35,562 nucleotides of DNA. Source: a virus. Positions 4,362-21,039 of this stretch are shown here, piece by piece. A program made the translations under genes and the position numbers. Location of the stretch: the IMG/VR virus record IMGVR_UViG_3300045988_033250, positions 1 to 35,562 of that record. One strand, written 5' to 3'. Under the pieces are notes generated by a model. It had not been told where the DNA came from. It made no database searches and was given only the letters and a program-made list of their open reading frames with translations. Numbering within the stretch: the first letter of the stretch is position 1; the number at the start of each line of letters is the position of its first letter.

Positions 4362-5696
4362 TTACTTGAAGAAAACTTCTATTCCATCAGGGGAAACATG
4401 GACAGAATCAAGGACATTTCGCCACAAGGTGCGCTTGTTTTCACGTGTGAGATTGTCATATATTGAGCGCCAACCGCTGTTCAAAAATTGGTTAAGATGA
4501 TCAGTACTTTGAGGTTTGAAAGATTCAAGCCTTTTTATTTTGTCTTCCGTTTCTGCATATAGGCGTTCATAGGTGCTTACAGGCATACGTTTTTTGATGA
4601 ATATATAATTCAGATTATCAAGTTCTTTTCTTAGTTCTTTTAATTCCTTTTCGGTTGTGTCTTTTGTTTCAGATGTGATGCTTGATATTGTGGCTATATG
4701 GTTTTTCAAAAGATCGTCAAGGTTAGACAACAGATATTTTTCCGTTGCCAGTTCTGCATAGTGTTTTTTGTGGGTACATGTATGCACTGAGTGGGCATTA
4801 TTACATCTATAGTAATAATATCGTTTGCCACCTTTTGGATGGCTCACTCCAACAAGCTTAGAACGGCATTCTGGGCATCTTAACAGTCCAGTGAATAAAT
4901 ATGTATGGCGCTGTATTCCTGTGCGTATATTGGCTTGTAATGCGGTCTGAACGGCATTGTATGTTTCTTTCGTGATGTATGGCTCGGCGTAGTTGGAGTT
5001 TCCACGATATGATCCTGCATAAAATTCATTCTTTAAAATGTGCATGTAGGCCATGTAAGGCCGAGACAGTCCGTATTTCTGGTTGACGTATTCGACTGTA
5101 TGATGGACTGACTGATGCAGGAGAAATGATTCGAAAATGTCTTTCACGATTGGTGCTTTGGATTCATCAATCACAATGCGTTTATTGCCGTTTTCTGTGG
5201 CAATCCTGTAGCCGAAAGGAACATTGCCAGTGATAGGTTGACCTTGTGCAATCTTGTACTCAAATACGGCTTTGATGCGTTCAGAGCCTTTTTTTAATTC
5301 ATGCTCCGCAAGGTTGACTTTAAGGTTGAACATAAACAAGCCGTTTGCGGTGGACGTGTTTATGTCGTCCTCACAAATGGAAATCATGGCAACATTGTTT
5401 TGTTGAAGAAGTTCAAGCATTTTATTAGCTTCAAGGACGTTACGTGACAAGCGGTCAAGGCGTGTGAAAGCTATGGCATCAAGATTTTTCAGGTTTGACA
5501 GCATGGATTGTAGTTGTGGACGTTTCATATTGCTTGCTGAGTAGCCCTCGTCGATATAAATGTTTTGCAATTGATGATTATGCTCGGAACACCAGTTTTT
5601 TATTTCGTCAATTTGTGCTTGTATTGAGTAACCATATTTCTTTTGTTCATCAGTAGATACACGGGCATAACCACCAATTCGTAAATTTTTTTTCAT
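4362..5696 (-). CDS. int: Large serine recombinase (phage integrase)
   Basis: The N-terminus MKKNLRIGGYARVSTDEQ is a resolvase catalytic domain with the Ser nucleophile. It also has a recombinase domain, a Cys-rich zinc ribbon (CPECRSKL...YYYRCNN...HTC) and a C-terminal coiled coil. The start at 5696 is preceded by GGAGG; the track ORF start at 5765 is an unsupported extension. Confidence 0.93.
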   Translation of the reverse strand: MKKNLRIGGYARVSTDEQKKYGYSIQAQIDEIKNWCSEHNHQLQNIYIDEGYSASNMKRPQLQSMLSNLKNLDAIAFTRLDRLSRNVLEANKMLELLQQNNVAMISICEDDINTSTANGLFMFNLKVNLAEHELKKGSERIKAVFEYKIAQGQPITGNVPFGYRIATENGNKRIVIDESKAPIVKDIFESFLLHQSVHHTVEYVNQKYGLSRPYMAYMHILKNEFYAGSYRGNSNYAEPYITKETYNAVQTALQANIRTGIQRHTYLFTGLLRCPECRSKLVGVSHPKGGKRYYYYRCNNAHSVHTCTHKKHYAELATEKYLLSNLDDLLKNHIATISSITSETKDTTEKELKELRKELDNLNYIFIKKRMPVSTYERLYAETEDKIKRLESFKPQSTDHLNQFLNSGWRSIYDNLTRENKRTLWRNVLDSVHVSPDGIEVFFK

Positions 5697-5837
5697 CAAA
5701 AATACCTCCGATTGATTGAAAATAAAAAAAGCAGTCCATACTAGCCATTGAAAGGCGGTGAGCATATGGACGCTGAAAGTTTCTATTCTTTGCTGTTTAA
5801 TCTTTATGCAGAACAGGAAGATCTCAAAATTGAATAT

Positions 5838-5859: not shown

Positions 5860-5871
5860 CGACAGATGGTT

Positions 5872-6213
5872 TCAATCAGAAACATTCTTGCTGTCAAGGT
5901 ACAGTTTCATTATCTTCAGATACAGCTCATCCTTCTCAGCTTCTGGAAGATCGTGAAACAGAGACTCGATGCGCAGTGTGAGGTCTGTCGCTTCATCGTA
6001 GCTTGACGTATCAATGCCAAAATATGAAATGTCGATTCCGTAAACCTCGCAAAAACGTTTCAGAGTTGAAAGAGTCAAGGAACGTTTTCCAGACTCAATA
6101 TTTGATATGGCAGGACGAGAAAGCCCGACCATTTCAGCAAGCTCAGACTGTTTAAGATCACGGGAGTTGCGTAGTTCTTTTAGTTTCCTTCCTATTGATT
6201 TATTATTGATCAT
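5872..6213 (-). CDS. XRE-family HTH repressor (CI-like), no peptidase domain
   Basis: IGRKLKELRNSRDLKQSELAEMVGLSRPAISNIESGKRSLTLSTLKRFCEVYG is a classical HTH_3 motif. It is divergent from a Cro-like gene and has RBS AGGTGGTG. Confidence 0.9.
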   Translation of the reverse strand: MINNKSIGRKLKELRNSRDLKQSELAEMVGLSRPAISNIESGKRSLTLSTLKRFCEVYGIDISYFGIDTSSYDEATDLTLRIESLFHDLPEAEKDELYLKIMKLYLDSKNVSD

Positions 6214-6360
6214 TATTCTTTACACCACCTAAAAAATTTATATTTCGATGATAACATAACGTTGCTATTTGAAACAATAAAAAATAATCGTATTTTGATT
6301 AAAAGTAGTTGCAATTTGATTACATAGGTTTATAATGTAATGCATGAAAGGGGGCATGAA
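6214..6360. promoter_or_regulatory. Divergent immunity control region with rightward early promoter
   Basis: -35 TTGCAA (6309-6314), 16-nt spacer, -10 TATAAT (6331-6336) facing the Cro-like gene. Inverted repeat TAATC-N7-GATTA lies at 6285-6301, with repeated TTTGATTA half-sites at 6294 and 6315 as candidate operators. Confidence 0.6.
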
Positions 6361-6559: not shown

Positions 6560-6682
6560 ATGTTAGAAATCGTAGCAGAAATCGTAAAAAGAGGGCAAGC
6601 AGAAGAATTAAGAAAAATTATTAAACAGTACGAAATTGATGTTTCAAAAAGAAAGGAAAACAAGAAAAATGATAGGATTTGA
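6560..6682 (+). CDS. Small hypothetical protein (40 aa)
   Basis: ORF MLEIVAEIVKRGQAEELRKIIKQYEIDVSKRKENKKNDRI fills the Cro-ERF gap. It is below the ORF-track cutoff and has a weak RBS. Confidence 0.3.
   Translation: MLEIVAEIVKRGQAEELRKIIKQYEIDVSKRKENKKNDRI
6641..6655 (+). repeat. Copy of the GTTTCAAAAAGAAAC element (variant GTTTCAAAAAGAAAG)
   Basis: gtttcaaaaagaaaggaaaacaagaaaaatg lies immediately upstream of the ERF start codon. Confidence 0.8.
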
Positions 6683-7873: not shown

Positions 7874-8463
7874 TGGAAACATTCAGCATTAAAGGTGGTA
7901 CGCTTGAATATTTCGATGATACTCATACATATCTGTATGATGGGCTTATATTGCCAAGCGTTACGCAGATTCTTGGTGTAAAATATAGAAATGATTATGC
8001 AAGCGTGCCTCCTGCCGTGTTGAATAATGCGGCTAAAAGAGGTACGGCAGTACATAAGGCAATCGAAAACTTTAATGTTTCGGGCTATGATGATGGAAGC
8101 GAAGCAGTGCGAAACTTTAAGTTTTTGCAGAAACAATACGGATTCGAGGTTCTGGACAGTGAGTTTCCGATTGTGATTTTCAAGGATGATATGCCGATAG
8201 CGTGTGGCAGACTTGACATGACAATGCTGATGGATGGTGAAACTGGCATTGCGGACATTAAAACAGTCAGTTCTTTAAACAAGGAAAAGATCGCATATCA
8301 GCTGAATTTATACCGCATCGGATTGATGCAAAGTTACGGAGTTGATGCAAAATTCCTGAAGATCATACATATTAGGAATGGTATCAGGAAAGTTGTTGAC
8401 TGCCCTGTAAACGAGGGCATGGCATTGGAAATCATAGAAGAATATTACAGAGGAAAGGAATAA
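7870..8463 (+). CDS. PD-(D/E)XK family exonuclease (RecB/Cas4-like fold, recombination partner of ERF)
   Basis: Motifs GTAVHKAIE, GRLDM, IADIKT (D-x-K) and QLNLYR are in the order typical of phage PD-(D/E)XK exonucleases. ATGA overlap with the upstream gene. Confidence 0.75.
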   Translation: MMETFSIKGGTLEYFDDTHTYLYDGLILPSVTQILGVKYRNDYASVPPAVLNNAAKRGTAVHKAIENFNVSGYDDGSEAVRNFKFLQKQYGFEVLDSEFPIVIFKDDMPIACGRLDMTMLMDGETGIADIKTVSSLNKEKIAYQLNLYRIGLMQSYGVDAKFLKIIHIRNGIRKVVDCPVNEGMALEIIEEYYRGKE

Positions 8464-9092
8464 TGTTGAAATCTGTCAAAAATTACAATTCATTATATGA
8501 AGTGAATGAAAAAGGAGAAATAAGAAGCTTATATCATTGGAATGGTCACAAGTACGAAAAAAGAAAAAAGCCATATATTCTAAAGCAATCAAATACAACA
8601 ACAGGATATAAAAAGGTTGAGCTTGTGAAAGATGGAAAGAGAAAAAGCATAAAGGTTCATAGAATAGTGGCAACTGCTTTTATCCCAAATCCTATGAATA
8701 AGCCATATATAAATCATATAGATGGAAACCCTATAAATAATTGTGTTGAAAATCTTGAATGGTGTACTCAACATGAAAATATTGTACATGCATATAAAAC
8801 AGGATTGATAAAAATATCACACATTACAAAAGAAGAATTGCAGAGATATATAGAAAATGGGCTTACATATAAGCAAATAATGAAAAAAGAACATATATCT
8901 TTTAAGAGGTTACAGAATTATTACAGAATGTATGGGTTGAGGAATCAACACAATAAATACAATATTGATTTGGAACAACTTAAAAATGATTTTAAAAAAG
9001 GAATGACGAACAAAGAACTTGCAAAAAAATACAATTGTTCAAATGCACTTATTGCAACACGAAAATATCAATTAAAAAAAGGGAGAATATAA
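8463..9092 (+). CDS. Free-standing HNH homing endonuclease (NUMOD4 + HNH_3-like)
   Basis: YEVNEKGEIRS (NUMOD4-like) and HRIVATAFIPNP...INHIDGNPINNCVENLEWCTQHEN (HNH_3). The gene is locally very AT-rich and is inserted with TAATG overlaps at both ends, between the exonuclease and ssb. Confidence 0.85.
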   Translation: MLKSVKNYNSLYEVNEKGEIRSLYHWNGHKYEKRKKPYILKQSNTTTGYKKVELVKDGKRKSIKVHRIVATAFIPNPMNKPYINHIDGNPINNCVENLEWCTQHENIVHAYKTGLIKISHITKEELQRYIENGLTYKQIMKKEHISFKRLQNYYRMYGLRNQHNKYNIDLEQLKNDFKKGMTNKELAKKYNCSNALIATRKYQLKKGRI

Positions 9093-10314: not shown

Positions 10315-10713
10315 ATGTATAGAAAATATCACAATACAAAGACGGTTGCTGATGGAATCAAGTTCGACTCAAAGTTGGAAGCTGAACGGTATGCACAGTT
10401 GAAGATTCTGGAACGTGCAGGAATTATAAGGAAGTTGGAACTACAGCCTTCTTTTGACCTTTTGCCGTCATTCAGGAAGAATGGCAAAACATGGCGTAAA
10501 ACCGTGTATAAAGCCGATTTCAGGTACATCTTGTGTGATGGCGATAGAATTATCATCGAGGATGTGAAAGGCTCTACAGCGGTAATTACTGACGTTTTCC
10601 GTTTAAAACAAAAACTGTTCGAATACAAATATCCAGAGTACACAATTAGTATCGTTACGAGTAAAGACATCAAGAAGTTTCAAAAAGAAACGAAAGTCGG
10701 CAAAATGTGTTGA
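10315..10713 (+). CDS. DUF1064 protein (putative Holliday-junction resolvase-like nuclease)
   Basis: KFDSKLEAERYAQLKILERAGIIRKLELQPSFDL...YKADFRY...IIEDVKG...FRLKQKLF is the DUF1064 signature. The C-terminal tail KFQKETKVGKMC is encoded by a copy of the repeated element. Confidence 0.8.
   Translation: MYRKYHNTKTVADGIKFDSKLEAERYAQLKILERAGIIRKLELQPSFDLLPSFRKNGKTWRKTVYKADFRYILCDGDRIIIEDVKGSTAVITDVFRLKQKLFEYKYPEYTISIVTSKDIKKFQKETKVGKMC
10677..10691 (+). repeat. Copy of the GTTTCAAAAAGAAAC element
   Basis: gtttcaaaaagaaacgaaagtcggcaaaatgtg lies inside the 3' end of the DUF1064 gene and directly upstream of a promoter. Confidence 0.85.
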
Positions 10714-10738
10714 TTTATTCACGATGCGATGATAGAAT
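10710..10738 (+). promoter_or_regulatory. Sigma-A-type promoter for the replication operon
   Basis: -35 TTGATT (10710-10715), 17-nt spacer ending in TGA (extended -10), -10 TAGAAT (10733-10738). Confidence 0.6.
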
Positions 10739-10745
10739 TAAAAAG

Positions 10746-10873
10746 TAGCAAAAATCTACACCACCTATTCAGTAACCGCCATTGCTGAATAGCAGTGAAT
10801 GAAACTGAATAGGTACATGAACCGTATTGCATTAGGTTGGCGGACTTAATGTGATGCGGTTTTTTGTTTTTTG
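10746..10873 (+). ncRNA. Structured leader RNA / candidate attenuator upstream of the replication organizer
   Basis: CCTATTCAG (10764-10772) can pair with either CTGAATAG copy (10785-10792 or 10805-10813), giving 11 bp each. The first hairpin loop CCGCCA (10776-10781) is complementary to TGGCGG (10838-10843) in the terminator loop. It ends in an intrinsic terminator. Confidence 0.5.
10821..10873 (+). terminator. Intrinsic terminator immediately before the organizer RBS
   Basis: 14-bp stem 10821-10834 / 10847-10860 with three G-U pairs (valid on the + strand only), a 12-nt loop, then tttttgttttttg. RBS AGGAGGG starts at 10878. Confidence 0.7.
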
Positions 10874-10893
10874 AAATAGGAGGGTTACTAACC

Positions 10894-11721
10894 ATGAATG
10901 ATATTAAATTAAATGACATTGCAGATGATCTGTTGATCCTTAACAAAATAACTGTTGATAGGTTATTCCAGCTTGAAAATTGTGCTGATTGCATTGCACT
11001 ATATGTGTTTTATTACAAAACAGCAAAGTGGCAGAAGACAAACACTGTGAAAGCAAACGATCAGTATGTGAAGAAGTCACTTAAATGGGGCATTTCAAAG
11101 ATTCAGAAAACGAAGCAGACGCTGAAGGAGCATGGTCTGATTGATATTGTTCAGCGCAGAAAAGATGGAAAAATCGAAGGCTGGTTCATAAAGGTTTCGT
11201 ACCTTGTGAATGAAAGAAAAGCTGATGAAATTAAAATAAAAGTGCAAAATATCAACAATACCCAAAATCAACAAGTAGAAAATTGTACAAGTGGCAATGA
11301 AGAAACAAATGCTTTAAAAGAAAAAATTAAATGCTTAAAAAAAGAAATAGAAATGCTTAAAGATAATAAGAAAGAAAGAAAGCCAAAGAAGCAAACCAAG
11401 TCGTATGATGAACAGATTGCAGAGTATACACAAAATGAAGATTTACAGAATGCGTTGAAAGCATTCTTACAGATGAGATCATTCATCAAGAAGCCAATGA
11501 CAGAGTATGCTCTTAAACTCATGCTGAAGAAACTTGATGAACTGGGAAATACAGACGATGTAAAAATCGCTATTCTCAATCAGTCAATAACACATAACTG
11601 GCAAGGAATCTTCCCATTGAAGGATGGATATACAAAGCAGGAGAAACAGCCAGATAAGAAATACGACCAGAACGGCTATGAGTCGGAAGAAGATCTCATG
11701 GCTATGTTTTACGGCAAATAA
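10894..11721 (+). CDS. Phage replisome organizer / DnaD-domain replication initiation protein
   Basis: N-terminal winged-helix-like region, then a Lys/Glu-rich linker. The C-terminus LQNALKAFLQMRSFIKKPMTEYALKLMLKKLDELG...AILNQSITHNWQGIF resembles DnaD/DnaB_2 domains. ATG at 10894 after AGGAGGG. A DnaC-like loader lies downstream. Confidence 0.7.
   Translation: MNDIKLNDIADDLLILNKITVDRLFQLENCADCIALYVFYYKTAKWQKTNTVKANDQYVKKSLKWGISKIQKTKQTLKEHGLIDIVQRRKDGKIEGWFIKVSYLVNERKADEIKIKVQNINNTQNQQVENCTSGNEETNALKEKIKCLKKEIEMLKDNKKERKPKKQTKSYDEQIAEYTQNEDLQNALKAFLQMRSFIKKPMTEYALKLMLKKLDELGNTDDVKIAILNQSITHNWQGIFPLKDGYTKQEKQPDKKYDQNGYESEEDLMAMFYGK
11307..11362. repeat. Three iteron-like direct repeats AAATGCTT(T)AAA spaced exactly 22 bp (candidate ori)
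   Basis: ATGCTT occurs at 11309, 11331 and 11353. The same DNA word is read in three different codon phases (NAL, KCL, EML). Nearby pair: CAAAAT(AT)CAACAA at 11245 and 11263. Confidence 0.55.
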
Positions 11722-11787
11722 GTTTCAAAAAGAAACAAAATGTGGAAAAATGTATTGCAATTGCTTTCATATTATGATATTATAATG
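11722..11787 (+). promoter_or_regulatory. Repeat element plus near-consensus promoter (copy A of a 66-bp direct repeat)
   Basis: GTTTCAAAAAGAAAC at 11722-11736. -35 TTGCAA (11755-11760), 17-nt spacer ending in TGA, -10 TATTAT (11778-11783), overlapping TATAAT at 11781-11786. About 92 percent identical to 13799-13864. Confidence 0.7.
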
Positions 11788-12971: not shown

Positions 12972-13796
12972 ATGAAAAGCATATACGATATATTTAAGAA
13001 TGAAGAGCCGACGGCGGAAGGGATACAGCGAATGCTTGCCACTTGTGATGATAAATCTGAGTATATCAAAGGCAATATGATTTATTGCCGAAAATGCAAC
13101 GAGCCACGAAGAGAATGGCTGTCGCTGATTGGTGGATATGTTCCTGTGATGTGTTCATGCATGATTGCAGAGCAAAAGAAACAGGACAGACTGGCACGAA
13201 TTAAAAAATACAGGAACACAGGATTTCCTGACAGAGAACTTCAGAAATGCAGATTTGATCTTGATGATCAGAAAGCAAAGAAGGCTAGCGACATGTGCAG
13301 GAATTATGCCAAAAAATTTGACGAGTTCAAGAAAGCAGGAAAAGGGCTTATCCTGTTTGGCGGAGTTGGAACAGGCAAGACGTTTCTTGCATCATGCATT
13401 GCGAATGAGTTGATTGACAATGGTATGCCGTGTCTGGTAACAAATTTTGCACGAATCATCAATACGCTTCAGGGCATGTATGAAGGAAAGCAGAACTATC
13501 TGGACAGCCTGAACGAGTTTGATCTTCTAGTTATTGATGATCTGGGTATTGAGCGAAACACGGAGTACGTTAACGAGTTGGTGTATAACATTATTGATGC
13601 GAGATACAGAAGCGGAAAACCGATGATAATTACCACTAATCTGAAGTATTCAGACTTGTACCATACAGAAGATACAAGCAAAGCCAGAATTTACAGCCGT
13701 ATCATTGAAATGTGTCTTCCTGTACTTGTCAGCGGAGAGGATAGAAGAAAAAACAAGATGCAGGACTCAAGGCTGATGGATATATTAAACGGTTAA
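12972..13796 (+). CDS. DnaC/DnaI-like AAA+ helicase loader
   Basis: Walker A GGVGTGKT, Walker B LLVIDDLG, and ARYRSGKPMIITTN. The N-terminus has CxxC pairs (CRKCNEP...CSC). Confidence 0.9.
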   Translation: MKSIYDIFKNEEPTAEGIQRMLATCDDKSEYIKGNMIYCRKCNEPRREWLSLIGGYVPVMCSCMIAEQKKQDRLARIKKYRNTGFPDRELQKCRFDLDDQKAKKASDMCRNYAKKFDEFKKAGKGLILFGGVGTGKTFLASCIANELIDNGMPCLVTNFARIINTLQGMYEGKQNYLDSLNEFDLLVIDDLGIERNTEYVNELVYNIIDARYRSGKPMIITTNLKYSDLYHTEDTSKARIYSRIIEMCLPVLVSGEDRRKNKMQDSRLMDILNG

Positions 13797-13798
13797 AT

Positions 13799-13864
13799 GT
13801 TTCAAAAAGAAACAAAATGCGGGAAAATGTATTGCAATCGCTTACATATTATGATATTATAATA
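13799..13864 (+). promoter_or_regulatory. Repeat element plus near-consensus promoter (copy B of the 66-bp direct repeat)
   Basis: GTTTCAAAAAGAAAC at 13799-13813. -35 TTGCAA (13832-13837), 17-nt spacer ending in TGA, -10 TATTAT (13855-13860). Confidence 0.7.
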
Positions 13865-21024: not shown

Positions 21025-21039
21025 GTTTCAAAAAGAAAC
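21025..21039 (+). repeat. Copy of the GTTTCAAAAAGAAAC element
   Basis: atgtttcaaaaagaaacaaaaacagcgaaaaatgt lies upstream of the glf remnant. Confidence 0.85.

What the first reader, a model, noticed from the sequence alone, without database searches (positions are those of the whole stretch)
10710..10893. Structured ~130-nt leader with mutually exclusive helices, complementary loops and an intrinsic terminator directly upstream of the replication-organizer gene
A good promoter (TTGATT, 17-nt spacer, TAGAAT, with an extended TG) would start transcription near 10746. The next gene starts only at 10894. The intervening RNA has three notable properties. (1) CCTATTCAG (10764-10772) can form an 11-bp helix with either of two CTGAATAG copies (10785-10792 or 10805-10813), a classic switch geometry. 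(2) The first helix has a 6-nt loop CCGCCA (10776-10781). (3) A 14-bp terminator stem (10821-10834 / 10847-10860) has three G-U pairs and a U-run ending 5 nt before the RBS, and its 12-nt loop contains UGGCGG (10838-10843), perfectly complementary to the first loop. This suggests a kissing-loop or pseudoknot. The layout resembles transcription-attenuation control of rep genes in pT181/pIP501-type plasmids, here placed in front of a phage DnaD-like initiator. It could alternatively be a stand-alone sRNA. I do not recognise it as a known riboswitch class.
Basis: seen in the sequence. Interest (0 to 1): 0.7.

Follow-up and report, generated by a model that had tools for sequence, protein, structure and literature searches.

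The report
Kissing-loop leader RNA before phage rep
A conserved ~125-nt structured RNA with its own promoter and terminator sits directly in front of the replication-initiator gene of a group of human-gut phages; it can fold in two ways, and the loop of its first hairpin matches the loop of its terminator, a match kept through at least a dozen sequence versions, so it looks like an undescribed RNA control of phage replication.

Summary
The promoter, the 9-nt strand X with two alternative partners, the 6-nt loop L1, the 14-bp terminator and its complementary loop L2 are all present. The fold has z = -5.7.

The element occurs in 127 fetched loci (41 distinct sequences), almost all from human-gut metagenomes or viromes. 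It always lies just upstream of a mosaic DnaD/O-like rep gene, or of a homing endonuclease inserted ahead of it.

All helices keep pairing with compensatory changes:
- Both mutually exclusive helices are 99.8% paired.
- The terminator is 99% paired.
- The L1-L2 loop-loop helix is 98.9% paired, across 14 L1/L2 combinations (about 12 distinct matched pairs).

Sequence diversity is concentrated in the two loops. No Rfam family matches.

The element is not a pT181-type attenuator. It has no antiterminator complementary to a terminator arm and no sign of an opposite-strand countertranscript.

Best reading: a bistable leader/attenuator for rep. L1 is exposed only briefly during transcription, and L1-L2 pairing, in cis or with terminated copies in trans, sets termination. 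The structure is shown; the regulatory logic is inferred. The closest functional analogue is the P4 CI RNA.

The parts
10677..10691 (+). 15-nt palindrome GTTTCAAAAAGAAAC about 20 bp upstream of the -35 box. It is part of a promoter module repeated three times in the window and is a putative binding site for a transcription regulator.
   Evidence: Exact copies lie at 10677, 11722, 13799 and 21025, with degenerate copies at 5869, 6261(-) and 6641. It is conserved upstream of the element in relatives even when the upstream gene differs.
10710..10738 (+). Sigma-A type promoter: -35 TTGATT, 17-nt spacer, extended -10 TGATAGAAT. The predicted start is near G10745.
   Evidence: The scan finds it. In 74 distinct upstream sequences TTGAC(T/A), the 17-nt spacing, the TG and TAnnAT are kept while the spacer sequence varies; in L184 and L201 the spacer is entirely different.
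10745..10759 (+). P0: a small 5'-terminal hairpin, GUAG/CUAC with a 7-nt loop.
   Evidence: 98.3% of cells are paired and 2 of 4 pairs show double changes on the CM alignment. RNAalifold predicts it.
10763..10773 (+). Strand X (core CCUAUUCAG), the shared 5' strand of the two mutually exclusive helices.
   Evidence: It pairs with X' in 99.8% of cells or with X'' in 99.8% of cells.
10765..10792 (+). P1 hairpin (state A): 11 bp, 10765-10775/10782-10792, displaying loop L1.
   Evidence: 3 pairs have compensatory changes: AU/GC/GU, AU/GC and GC/AU. It is the MFE of the growing transcript until position 10810.
10776..10781 (+). L1: the 6-nt loop CCGCCA, complementary to L2.
   Evidence: The loop-loop helix is 98.9% paired and 4 of 7 pairs have compensatory changes. 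There are 14 L1/L2 combinations, and the cognate partner is best or tied best in 13.
10780..10797 (+). P1b (state B only): an inner hairpin, CAUUGCU/AGCAGUG, that buries the 3' end of L1.
   Evidence: It is present in the MFE. In the C-F sequence group the 3' end of L1 covaries with the 5' end of segment J: AU in 9, CG in 8, broken in 3 of 20.
10804..10814 (+). X'' (core CUGAAUAGG), the distal partner of X (state B). It is the most conserved segment of the RNA.
   Evidence: It forms an 11-bp helix with 2 compensatory pairs, CG/UA and AU/GC/GU. TGAATAG is invariant in 41 sequences, and pairwise diversity is 0.01 in the C-F group.
10821..10860 (+). Terminator hairpin: a 14-bp core stem, extendable to about 20 bp with weak apical pairs.
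   Evidence: The terminator scan finds it. The hairpin energy is -22.6 to -24.8 kcal/mol. 99% of cells are paired and 8 of 17 pairs have compensatory changes.
10838..10843 (+). L2: UGGCGG in the terminator loop, complementary to L1.
   Evidence: The L1/L2 duplex energy in the window is -11.8 kcal/mol.
10860..10872 (+). U-tract of the terminator (UUUUUUGUUUUUU).
   Evidence: Relatives keep at least 4 U directly after the stem.
10879..11721 (+). RBS (GGAGGG 10879-10884) and the replication-initiator gene (ATG 10894 to stop 11721), the gene downstream of the leader.
   Evidence: It matches PHROG 678, replication initiation O-like (7e-22), and PHROG 186, DnaD-like. A gene is called at the same coordinates on the source contig.

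Best explanation
The element is a non-coding leader RNA of about 125 nt, running from the predicted start near 10745 to the U-tract at 10872. It is transcribed from its own regulated promoter and ends in an intrinsic terminator 6 nt before the RBS of the replication-initiator gene. All transcription into rep, from this promoter and from upstream, must therefore read through that terminator.

The 5' domain is bistable.
- State A forms first. X pairs with the proximal copy X' and displays the 6-7-nt loop L1 on an 11-bp hairpin.
- State B can form once the distal copy X'' is made. X re-pairs with X'', and the 3' part of L1 is buried in an inner hairpin with segment J.

L1 is thus available only in a short co-transcriptional window. 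Its only conserved partner is L2, the loop of the terminator hairpin.

Proposed logic (inferred):
1. Pairing of L1 with the nascent L2 in cis locks state A and lowers termination efficiency, allowing rep expression.
2. Transcripts that refold to state B terminate and are released with L2 exposed.
3. These released RNAs can occupy L1 of other nascent leaders in trans, block the cis contact and favour termination.

The terminated leader would then act as its own same-strand 'countertranscript'. This would give dose-dependent negative control of rep, and the hypervariable L1/L2 pair would define specificity groups.

Shown: the promoter, both helices, the terminator, the loop-loop complementarity and its covariation, and the position in front of rep.
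Inferred: that termination is regulated, the direction of the effect, and any action in trans.
For: Structure:
- Fold z = -5.68.
- On a 41-sequence structural alignment, P1 is 99.8% paired, the L1-L2 helix 98.9% and the terminator 99.0%. 15 pairs carry double changes. The covariation score is 0.448 against 0.221 in shuffles (0 of 500 reach it), and slid controls pair only 31-43%.
- The alternative helix X:X'' is 99.8% paired with 2 compensatory pairs.
- The CM-derived alignment gives the same result.
- Many G-U pairs fit only the + strand RNA.

Leader rather than free-standing gene:
- The same promoter module drives two other transcription units in the window, with leaders of only about 30 nt. 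Only the rep unit has the long structured leader.
- The RBS of the next gene follows the U-tract within about 6-25 nt in most relatives.

Bistability and timing:
- State B is -51.4 kcal/mol. State A with open loops (-42.1) plus the loop duplex (-11.8) is about -54.
- The MFE of the growing transcript is state A until 10810 and state B from 10814.
- The A-to-B barrier is 7.3-9.5 kcal/mol in all 14 classes.
- The probability that L1 is fully unpaired at nested equilibrium is at most 0.01 in 13 of 14 classes. L2 is at least 90% exposed in 9 of 14.

Specificity:
- The cognate L1/L2 pair is best or tied best in 13 of 14 classes, averaging -9.5 against -6.0 kcal/mol for non-cognate pairs.
- Diversity is concentrated in L1, L2, J and the top of P1. 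X'' and the lower terminator stem are nearly invariant.
- L251 differs from its closest relatives at only four positions in the core: one in X, one in L1 and two in L2, of which the L1 change and one L2 change compensate each other (C-G to U-A).

Precedent: in P4, an RNA made from the same untranslated transcript pairs with same-strand sequences and causes premature termination ahead of the replication genes (PMC4825925).
Against: - No conventional antiterminator exists. Both states leave the terminator hairpin intact, and the best leader/terminator-arm duplexes are no better than shuffled controls. How loop pairing would change termination is therefore unexplained. A kissing complex is sterically compatible with a closed terminator hairpin.
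- There are no expression data: no 5' or 3' ends and no evidence of read-through control.
- In the window's own class L2 is partly closed by weak apical pairs (P unpaired 0.04).
- The barrier-to-time conversion is rough.
- My structural alignment was fitted to the structure, including the register of L2, which inflates the percentage paired.
- The host is unknown, so promoter and terminator rules are assumed to be those of Bacillota.
- Loop variability with compensation could be neutral drift rather than selection for new specificities.
Confidence: 0.5

Rival explanations
1. It is a stand-alone small RNA gene. The promoter-to-terminator unit makes a stable ~125-nt sRNA whose L1-L2 contact is simply an intramolecular tertiary contact (a compact kissing fold). 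It acts in trans on an unknown RNA or protein target. Its position before rep is synteny, and rep is expressed by terminator leak.
For: - It has its own conserved promoter and a strong terminator.
- Homology between relatives ends right after the U-tract, and loop classes are shuffled relative to the downstream gene type. In some loci a homing endonuclease gene, not rep, follows.
- No antiterminator is present.
- A 24-28-nt linker is long enough for a cis kissing complex (geometry, inference).
Against: - No promoter lies between the terminator and rep, so rep depends on read-through in any case.
- The sister promoters in the same phage have short leaders.
- No third site covarying with L1/L2 was found in up to about 10 kb of flanks.
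- Loops that only make a tertiary contact are usually among the most conserved positions of an RNA. Here they are among the most variable.
- This reading does not explain the conserved second conformer that hides L1.
Confidence: 0.25
2. It is a protein-responsive attenuator. The input is a phage or host RNA-binding protein that recognises the invariant single-stranded X'' (ACUGAAUAG) or X'. Binding shifts the A/B equilibrium and so decides whether L1 can reach L2. The RNA does not act in trans.
For: - X'' is almost invariant, although wobble-compatible changes are tolerated in X and X'. This suggests a constraint beyond pairing.
- The bistable design needs some input.
Against: - No candidate protein co-varies or is consistently adjacent. 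The upstream gene can be DUF1064 or another gene.
- The invariance of X'' could simply reflect the need to pair with every X variant.
- This reading does not explain why L1/L2 diversify.
Confidence: 0.15
3. It is a multimerising RNA. L1 of one molecule pairs with L2 of the next to build dimers or rings, as the phi29 packaging RNA does, giving an RNA scaffold used in replication or packaging.
For: There are two complementary loops on one RNA, with covariation and sequence divergence between related phages. The same pattern is known for pRNA (own knowledge).
Against: - There is no match to the pRNA family or to any Rfam model.
- The phage is a temperate siphovirus-type genome with a terminase, an integrase and a DnaD/DnaC replication module, not a phi29-like podovirus.
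- Intramolecular pairing is sterically possible here.
- L1 is hidden at equilibrium.
Confidence: 0.05
4. It is a DNA-level element. The repeats and inverted repeats would be protein-binding sites or a replication origin next to rep, not an RNA structure.
For: There are three copies of an 8-9-bp motif and a pair of inverted hexamers next to an initiator gene. A dyad and a palindrome do exist in the promoter part.
Against: - Pairing is kept through many G-U pairs, which would be C-A mismatches on the other strand or in duplex DNA. In the first hairpin stem (P1, the X:X' helix), for example, the counts include UG 15, GU 11 and UG 19.
- The covariation follows antiparallel Watson-Crick logic over four helices.
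- The hairpin plus U-tract is a canonical terminator.
- Candidate iteron-like repeats lie inside rep at 11307-11347 instead.
Confidence: 0.03
5. It is ordinary intergenic punctuation: a terminator for the upstream operon plus a promoter, with the extra complementarities arising by chance.
For: Promoter-like and terminator-like matches are common in AT-rich phage DNA. The scan totals are close to shuffle expectation.
Against: - The order is wrong: the promoter comes before the terminator.
- The fold has z = -5.7.
- The whole 125 nt is conserved, with compensatory changes in four helices and about 12 matched loop pairs.
Confidence: 0.02

Closest known systems
Satellite phage P4 immunity: CI RNA with seqA/seqC (Deho, Ghisotti and co-workers; summarised in PMC4825925)
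   Same: [quoted passage not shown] - The RNA defines immunity specificity.
   Different: - P4 CI is cut out of the leader by processing and pairs with two linear target sequences. Here the partners are two hairpin loops, one of which is the loop of the terminator itself.
- There is no sequence or structure similarity.
- P4 is a proteobacterial satellite. This element is in gut phages whose nearest cultured relatives infect Lactobacillus.
- The three-strand X/X'/X'' switch has no P4 counterpart that I know of.
- Function here is untested.
pT181 / pIP501 / pAMbeta1 antisense-RNA-mediated transcription attenuation of rep (Novick 1989; Brantl and Wagner; described in PMC4878617)
   Same: - The leader lies between the promoter and the rep gene and ends in an intrinsic terminator.
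- A 5' sensing hairpin has a loop that starts a kissing interaction.
- The decision must be taken in a short co-transcriptional window.
- The loops determine specificity (incompatibility).
   Different: - In pT181 the base of the sensing hairpin is an antiterminator that pairs with the 5' arm of the terminator. No such complementarity exists here.
- In pT181 the antisense RNA comes from the opposite strand and is fully complementary. Here there is no antisense promoter, and the complementary loop is on the same strand, inside the terminator.
Phage P1/P7 c4 antisense RNA (Citron and Schuster 1990; own knowledge)
   Same: - It is a same-strand, co-transcribed antisense RNA.
- Short loop sequences and their targets covary between related phages and define heteroimmunity.
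   Different: - c4 blocks translation, and indirectly transcription, of icd-ant, not of replication genes.
- Its targets are single-stranded mRNA sites.
- The Rfam C4 family (named from memory; I did not check that it is in this release) does not match: no Rfam family reached threshold here.
Kissing-loop copy-number controls ColE1 RNAI/RNAII and R1 CopA/CopT (own knowledge; R1 is discussed in PMC4878617)
   Same: - 6-7-nt loops are fully engaged in loop-loop helices.
- In some classes complementarity extends partly into the upper stems; 11 bp with one bulge is predicted in the C class.
   Different: - Those systems use opposite-strand antisense RNAs.
- Their outputs are primer maturation or translation, not a terminator carrying one of the loops.
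phi29-family packaging RNA (pRNA)
   Same: One RNA carries two loops complementary to each other, with covariation between related phages.
   Different: - The genomic context and function differ (packaging motor of protein-primed podoviruses).
- pRNA has no terminator role.
- No Rfam match was found.

Membership tests
Intrinsic (Rho-independent) terminator | A G+C-containing hairpin immediately followed by a U-tract on the transcribed strand. | tested here: met
   The terminator scan finds it at 10819-10862 plus TTTGTTTTTT. The hairpin energy is -22.6 to -24.8 kcal/mol. The stem is 99% paired in 41 relatives, and at least 4 U are retained.
pT181/pIP501-type antisense-controlled transcription attenuator | A leader between the promoter and the rep gene that contains an intrinsic terminator. 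| tested here: met
   The promoter is conserved in 74 distinct upstream sequences.
pT181/pIP501-type antisense-controlled transcription attenuator | An antiterminator segment in the leader that pairs with the 5' arm of the terminator, mutually exclusive with the terminator. | tested here: not met
   The best duplexes between the leader and either terminator arm are within the range of shuffled arms and differ between classes. Both conformers keep the terminator.
pT181/pIP501-type antisense-controlled transcription attenuator | A countertranscript made from the opposite strand of the leader. | tested here: not met
   - There is no promoter-like site on the - strand between 10740 and 11000.
- The region downstream of the terminator is not conserved.
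- The helices rely on G-U pairs valid only on the + strand.
- The - strand CM hits are weak fragments.
- A weak or unusual antisense promoter cannot be strictly excluded.
pT181/pIP501-type antisense-controlled transcription attenuator | A sensing-hairpin loop that kisses a complementary loop of the regulator RNA. | tested here: inconclusive
   A complementary loop exists and covaries, but it lies on the same RNA, in the terminator loop. Whether pairing is in cis, in trans or both cannot be told from sequence.
P4-type same-transcript antisense RNA immunity (CI RNA) | The regulator and its target sequences are encoded on the same strand of one untranslated leader upstream of the replication genes. 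| tested here: met
   L1 and L2 lie on the + strand, 57 nt apart, upstream of rep. The P4 description is in PMC4825925.
P4-type same-transcript antisense RNA immunity (CI RNA) | RNA-RNA pairing causes premature termination and confers immunity in the lysogen. | not testable with these tools
   This needs transcript mapping and genetics.
P4-type same-transcript antisense RNA immunity (CI RNA) | Sequence or structure homology to P4 CI/seqA-type RNAs. | tested here: not met
   No Rfam family reached threshold in the window or in 6 relatives. The only sub-threshold hit is a chance RsaOG match on the - strand, E = 4.9.
Metabolite-binding riboswitch | A conserved aptamer core of invariant unpaired nucleotides, and a known-class match. 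| tested here: not met
   There is no Rfam match. The invariant segments are the strands of the alternative helices, and the loops are hypervariable.
phi29-type pRNA | Covariance-model match and a packaging-motor context in a protein-primed podovirus. | tested here: not met
   There is no Rfam hit. The genome has a large terminase, a serine integrase and a DnaD/DnaC-type replication module.
Leader-peptide (ribosome-mediated) attenuator | A conserved short ORF in the leader. | tested here: not met
   The only ATG-initiated mini-ORF in the window's leader (10818-10850, 10 codons) is lost or replaced by other frames in relatives. For example, TACATAA replaces TACATGA in L041, L235, L251 and L266, and the B and C classes have different sequence there.

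The most novel reading that the evidence does not exclude
The terminated leader is its own countertranscript. This would be a same-strand, self-addressed antisense system in which a transiently exposed sensor loop (L1) on the nascent rep leader is contested between the nascent terminator loop (cis, read-through) and the exposed terminator loops of already released leader RNAs (trans, termination). The system would count phage genome copies, shut rep off in lysogens or late in infection, and define replication-incompatibility or immunity groups. That would explain why the matched loop pair has diversified into about 12 versions among otherwise near-identical gut phages.
Probability: 0.3. Interest if true: 0.85.

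Novelty: new variant of a known kind. Interest (0 to 1): 0.72.

Why it matters
If the regulatory reading holds, this is an RNA-only checkpoint on replication-initiator expression in a common group of human-gut temperate phages. Its architecture is not found in Rfam or in the papers I could search. One loop of a kissing pair sits in the loop of the terminator. The other sits on a sensor hairpin that a three-strand switch exposes only briefly.

It would extend plasmid-style antisense copy control and P4-style RNA immunity to tailed phages of Bacillota. It would also give a natural set of at least ten near-orthogonal kissing-loop pairs on one scaffold, which is useful for synthetic RNA regulators. 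And it offers a clean test case for co-transcriptional folding.

Even if it proves to be only a structured sRNA, it is a well-supported new RNA family with unusually clear covariation for a tertiary (loop-loop) contact.

Tried and rejected
1. Rfam. No match at gathering thresholds in the window or in six relatives. At E<=10 around the element the only hit is a chance RsaOG match on the - strand.
2. tRNA/tmRNA. None found.
3. DNA similarity to 50,697 GenBank phages. No match in near or distant mode.
4. Genome-contig scan with TGAATAGRYAN{4,5}RACYGTAT. The pattern was too loose: 120 rows, all chance matches, none containing the element.
5. Exact-protein look-ups for DUF1064 and SSB. Only human-gut metagenome contigs were returned.
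6. Nearest cultured relatives and distant rep loci (Lactobacillus delbrueckii phage PMBT4, bajarodcaudo virus 4, L034-L040). No element found with filters off.
7. A third site covarying with L1/L2 as a trans target. Extra k-mer matches in the flanks are class-independent coding sequence.
8. A classical antiterminator. Rejected.
9. A leader peptide. Not conserved.
10. X as an anti-SD mimic or partner of the rep RBS. AAUAGG at 10875-10880 could pair with X in the window's rep type only, so this is not a general feature.
11. The plain MAFFT alignment mis-registers the 3' arm of the terminator between classes. I replaced it with a CM alignment and a manual N-padded structural alignment.
12. Co-occurrence. 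In 5 of 5 metagenomes with two element-bearing contigs the loop classes differ, but the chance expectation is about 0.26 and assemblers collapse identical copies. This is not evidence.
13. Literature searches found no description of this RNA.
Full report
**Context**

The 35.5-kb window is a temperate, siphovirus-type phage genome. Exactly the same DUF1064 and SSB proteins are found only on human-gut metagenome contigs, one of which (35,517 bp) is essentially this window.

Upstream of the finding, on the + strand, lie an exonuclease, an HNH endonuclease, SSB, NinB and a DUF1064 (resolvase-like) gene ending at 10713. A serine integrase (4362-5765) and a cI-like gene lie on the - strand. Downstream are a replication initiator (10894-11721; PHROG 678 'replication initiation O-like', 7e-22; also DnaD-like PHROGs) and a DnaC/IstB-like loader (12972-13796).

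The large terminase is 77% identical to those of Lactobacillus delbrueckii phages. There is no DNA-level match to any of 50,697 GenBank phage records. The host is not identified.

**The observation**

- the promoter TTGATT-17-TGATAGAAT;
- X = CCTATTCAG (10764-10772);
- its two partners X' (10785-10792) and X'' (10805-10813);
- the 11-bp hairpin with loop L1 = CCGCCA (10776-10781);
- the terminator stem 10821-10834/10847-10860 with three G-U pairs;
- L2 = TGGCGG (10838-10843) in its loop;
- the T-run to 10872, the RBS at 10879-10884 and the ATG at 10894.

The RNA 10746-10893 folds at -51.2 kcal/mol against -30.5 +/- 3.7 for dinucleotide shuffles (z = -5.68, 0 of 200). There is no tRNA and no Rfam family at gathering thresholds. 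At E<=10 the only hit is a chance RsaOG match on the opposite strand.

**Relatives**

Searching IMG/VR with the Rep protein and with DNA patterns, and the metagenome collection with a stricter pattern, brought in 127 loci that contain the element. These give 41 distinct core sequences and 49 distinct sequences when short flanks are included. Almost all come from human-gut assemblies; one is labelled fermentation and one viral metagenome. Identity to the window ranges from 97% down to about 70%.

The element was not found in more distant rep loci, in L. delbrueckii phage PMBT4 or in a rodent-gut phage, even with CM filters off. My one scan of the reference-genome collection used too loose a pattern and returned only chance matches.

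**Covariation**

A plain MAFFT alignment mis-registers the terminator. I therefore built a covariance model from two sequence classes, realigned with it, and made a manual structural alignment with N as gap placeholder that MAFFT left unchanged.

On that 41-sequence alignment, the structure 'P1 (X:X') + terminator + L1-L2 pseudoknot' gives:

| measure | value |
|---|---|
| cells paired | 99.2% |
| pairs with changes on both sides | 15 |
| covariation score | 0.448, against 0.221 in shuffles (0 of 500) |
| cells paired when the 3' partners are slid | 31-43% |

Per helix:
- P1: 99.8% paired, 3 compensatory pairs.
- Loop-loop helix: 98.9% paired, 4 of 7 pairs compensatory (for example UA/CG, CG/UA, CG/AU/GC).
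- Terminator: 99.0% paired, 8 of 17 pairs compensatory.

The competing helix X:X'' is 99.8% paired with two compensatory pairs (CG/UA; AU/GC/GU).

The CM alignment, which was not hand-fitted, gives 98.3% pairing for P0, P1 and the terminator. RNAalifold predicts the same three helices on its own. The many G-U pairs are legal only for the + strand RNA.

One caveat applies. The manual alignment was fitted to the structure, including the register of L2, so the percentage paired is somewhat flattered. The slid controls and the independent CM alignment limit that concern.

**The loops**

Fourteen L1/L2 combinations occur:

| L1 | L2 | note |
|---|---|---|
| CCGCCA | UGGCGG | the window |
| UUCGCGC | GCGCGAA | |
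| UUCGCAC(C) | (G)GUGCGAA | |
| CCGCCC | GGGCGG | |
| UCGCCC | GGGCGA | |
| UUGCCC | GGGCAA | |
| UUGCGC | GCGCAA | |
| CUGCCA | UGGCAG | |
| UCGCCU | GGGGCGA | one G-U |
| CCGUCC | GGGCGG | one G-U |
| UCGCCA | UGGCGG | one G-U |
| ACGCAC | GUGCG | |
| (two single-mismatch variants) | | |

In an all-against-all duplex calculation the cognate L2 is the best or tied-best partner of its L1 in 13 of 14 classes, averaging -9.5 against -6.0 kcal/mol.

Within the largest backbone group, pairwise diversity is 0.22 in L1, 0.17 in L2 and 0.24 in J. It is only 0.01 in X'' and 0.03-0.05 in the lower terminator stem. So the loops are the fast-evolving part, the opposite of what is usual for a purely architectural tertiary contact.

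I found no third site in the available flanks that changes together with the loops. L1 and L2 are each other's partners.

**Two states**

Without the pseudoknot, the nested MFE in every class is state B, in which X pairs with X''. It is 0.2-11 kcal/mol (about 2-11 in most classes) below state A, in which X pairs with X'.

In state B an inner hairpin (P1b) pairs the 3' part of L1, and the following bases, with the 3' end of X' and the 5' end of J. In the C-F group that contact covaries: AU in 9, CG in 8 and broken in 3 of 20 sequences.

For the window:

| state | energy (kcal/mol) |
|---|---|
| B | -51.4 |
| A | -44.1 |
| A with both loops open | -42.1 |
| L1/L2 duplex | -11.8 |
| A plus kiss (approximate sum) | about -54 |

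The two end states are therefore about equally stable. The MFE of the growing transcript is state A up to 10810 and state B from 10814.

The direct-path barrier from A to B is 7.3-9.5 kcal/mol in all 14 classes. By a rough Arrhenius estimate (my inference) this is a refolding time of tenths of a second to seconds. That is the same order as the time RNA polymerase needs to go from X'' to L2 and the U-tract.

At nested equilibrium L1 is fully unpaired with probability at most 0.01 in 13 of 14 classes. L2 is at least 90% exposed in 9 of 14. It is less exposed in the window's class, where weak apical pairs cover it.

**What it is not**

- There is no classical antiterminator. The best duplexes between the leader and either arm of the terminator are no better than with shuffled arms and differ from class to class, and both states keep the terminator.
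- There is no promoter-like site on the opposite strand, and the sequence downstream of the U-tract is mosaic, so a conserved countertranscript is unlikely.
- There is no conserved leader peptide.
- There is no aptamer-like invariant core.

Membership in the pT181/pIP501 attenuator family therefore fails on two defining features (as described in PMC4878617), although the general logic may be similar.

**Leader or free-standing sRNA?**

Three observations favour a leader.
1. The promoter belongs to a module that occurs three times in the window: 10677-10740, 11722-11786 and 13799-13862. The module is the palindrome GTTTCAAAAAGAAAC, about 9 nt, AAAATGTnTTG, a 17-nt spacer and an extended -10. 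The other two copies drive genes through leaders of about 30 nt, and only the rep copy carries the 125-nt structure.
2. No promoter lies between the terminator and rep.
3. In most relatives the next RBS follows the U-tract within about 6-25 nt.

Other observations favour an autonomous unit. Homology between phages stops right after the U-tract. Loop classes are shuffled relative to the type of rep N-terminal domain. In several phages a GIY-YIG-type homing endonuclease gene sits between the terminator and rep.

The promoter itself is well supported. TTGAC(T/A), the 17-nt spacing, the TG and TAnnAT persist in 74 distinct upstream sequences, including two whose spacer is entirely different and several with a different upstream gene.

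**Most likely mechanism**

Steps marked 'shown' or 'inferred'.
- Shown: transcription entering rep must pass a conserved intrinsic terminator. The 5' domain has two conserved, mutually exclusive folds. The first-formed fold displays L1 and the later, more stable one hides it. L1's only conserved partner is the terminator loop L2.
- Inferred: L1-L2 pairing is the control point. The most coherent scheme is that cis pairing of L1 with the emerging L2 locks state A and reduces termination, perhaps by slowing closure of the upper terminator stem. In several classes the predicted duplex extends into the 3' side of that stem.
- Inferred: transcripts that refold to state B terminate and are released with L2 exposed. 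These RNAs can then occupy L1 on other nascent leaders and so favour termination.

That would make the terminated leader a same-strand countertranscript giving dose-dependent repression of rep. It would also explain diversification of the loop pair as escape from cross-regulation between related phages.

The closest precedent is P4. There the CI RNA, derived from the same untranslated transcript, pairs with same-strand sequences and causes premature termination ahead of the replication genes (PMC4825925). The direction of the effect, and whether there is any action in trans, are not established. A kissing complex is compatible with a closed terminator hairpin, so the opposite sign is possible.

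**Rivals**

| rival | confidence |
|---|---|
| Stand-alone sRNA with an intramolecular kissing fold and an unknown trans function | 0.25 |
| Attenuator whose input is a protein binding the nearly invariant X'' | 0.15 |
| pRNA-like multimer | 0.05 |
| DNA-level site or origin, contradicted by strand-specific G-U pairing (candidate iteron-like repeats lie inside rep at 11307-11347) | 0.03 |
| Chance, effectively refuted | 0.02 |

**Novelty and verdict**

The parts are familiar: promoter, switch helices, kissing loops and terminator. The purpose suggested by the position, control of an initiator gene by a leader RNA, is a known kind.

The architecture matches nothing in Rfam 15 or in the papers I could search. 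It combines a sensor loop paired to the loop of its own terminator, a three-strand switch that gates the sensor, and about 12 naturally occurring matched loop pairs.

I rate it a new variant of a known kind, real and well supported as a structure, with an untested mechanism. Interest: 0.72.

Noticed in passing
window 10677-10740, 11722-11786, 13799-13862; also 21025-21039, 5869-5883, 6261-6275(-), 6641-6655: A promoter module occurs three times: the palindrome GTTTCAAAAAGAAAC, about 9 nt, AAAATGTnTTG as the -35 region, a 17-nt spacer and an extended -10. The 15-nt palindrome alone recurs exactly at 21025, before the 21091 ORF (which lies upstream of the large terminase gene) with no obvious -35/-10, and in degenerate form around the cI/cro-like switch. 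Its centre is about -62 from the predicted start, which would suit an activator or a looping repressor. The module carries the last ~13 codons of whichever gene lies upstream.
   Followed up: partly
relatives, e.g. L018 and L020 (first ORF after the terminator); L243: In some phages a GIY-YIG-type homing endonuclease (M..WTVYKHTAPNGKVYIG..., with repeated NUMOD-like motifs) or another small endonuclease-like ORF is inserted between the terminator and rep. The junction right after the U-tract is a recombination or insertion hot spot.
   Followed up: partly
window 10894-11721 and downstream genes in L005, L009, L016, L021, L184, L257, L265: The rep proteins are mosaic. The C-terminal DnaD-like domain is shared (...KSYDEQI.EYT.NEELQNALKAF.QMRSFIKKPMTEYALKLMLKKLDE...). 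At least six unrelated N-terminal domains occur, and they assort independently of the L1/L2 loop class.
   Followed up: partly
window 10873-10884: The rep RBS region GAAAUAGGAGGG resembles X'' (CUGAAUAGG). X (CCUAUU) could pair with AAUAGG 10875-10880, giving a possible fourth partner and a translational effect. This holds only in the window's rep type (L001-L003), not in other classes.
   Followed up: partly
L015:2369-2520: One relative carries a 19-nt duplication of the 5' hairpin P0 region (GTAGATATAAATCTAGGAACAGGTAGAAATCTAT), giving two tandem 5' stem-loops.
   Followed up: no
window 10716-10732 and the equivalent promoter spacers in relatives: The spacer between -35 and -10 often holds a dyad (TCACAATGTGA, TCACATTATGA, TCATATTATGA in the sister promoters). 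This may be an operator inside the promoter.
   Followed up: no
window 8463-9092: An HNH/NUMOD4 homing-endonuclease gene is wedged between the exonuclease and SSB genes of the recombination module. Its stop overlaps the SSB start at 9092.
   Followed up: no
window 11307-11347 and 11455-11465: Inside rep, tandem 19-nt A/T-rich repeats (AAATGCTTTAAAAGAAAAA x2) have an inverted partner 136 nt away. This is a candidate internal origin, as in lambda O. Read-through from the leader would then also transcribe the origin.
   Followed up: no
metagenome samples ERZ1034626, ERZ1034897, ERZ1034901, ERZ1034687, ERZ1035027: Each sample has two element-bearing contigs, and in all five the two carry different L1/L2 classes. 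This is suggestive of incompatibility but not significant (chance about 0.26), and it is confounded by assembly collapsing identical copies.
   Followed up: yes
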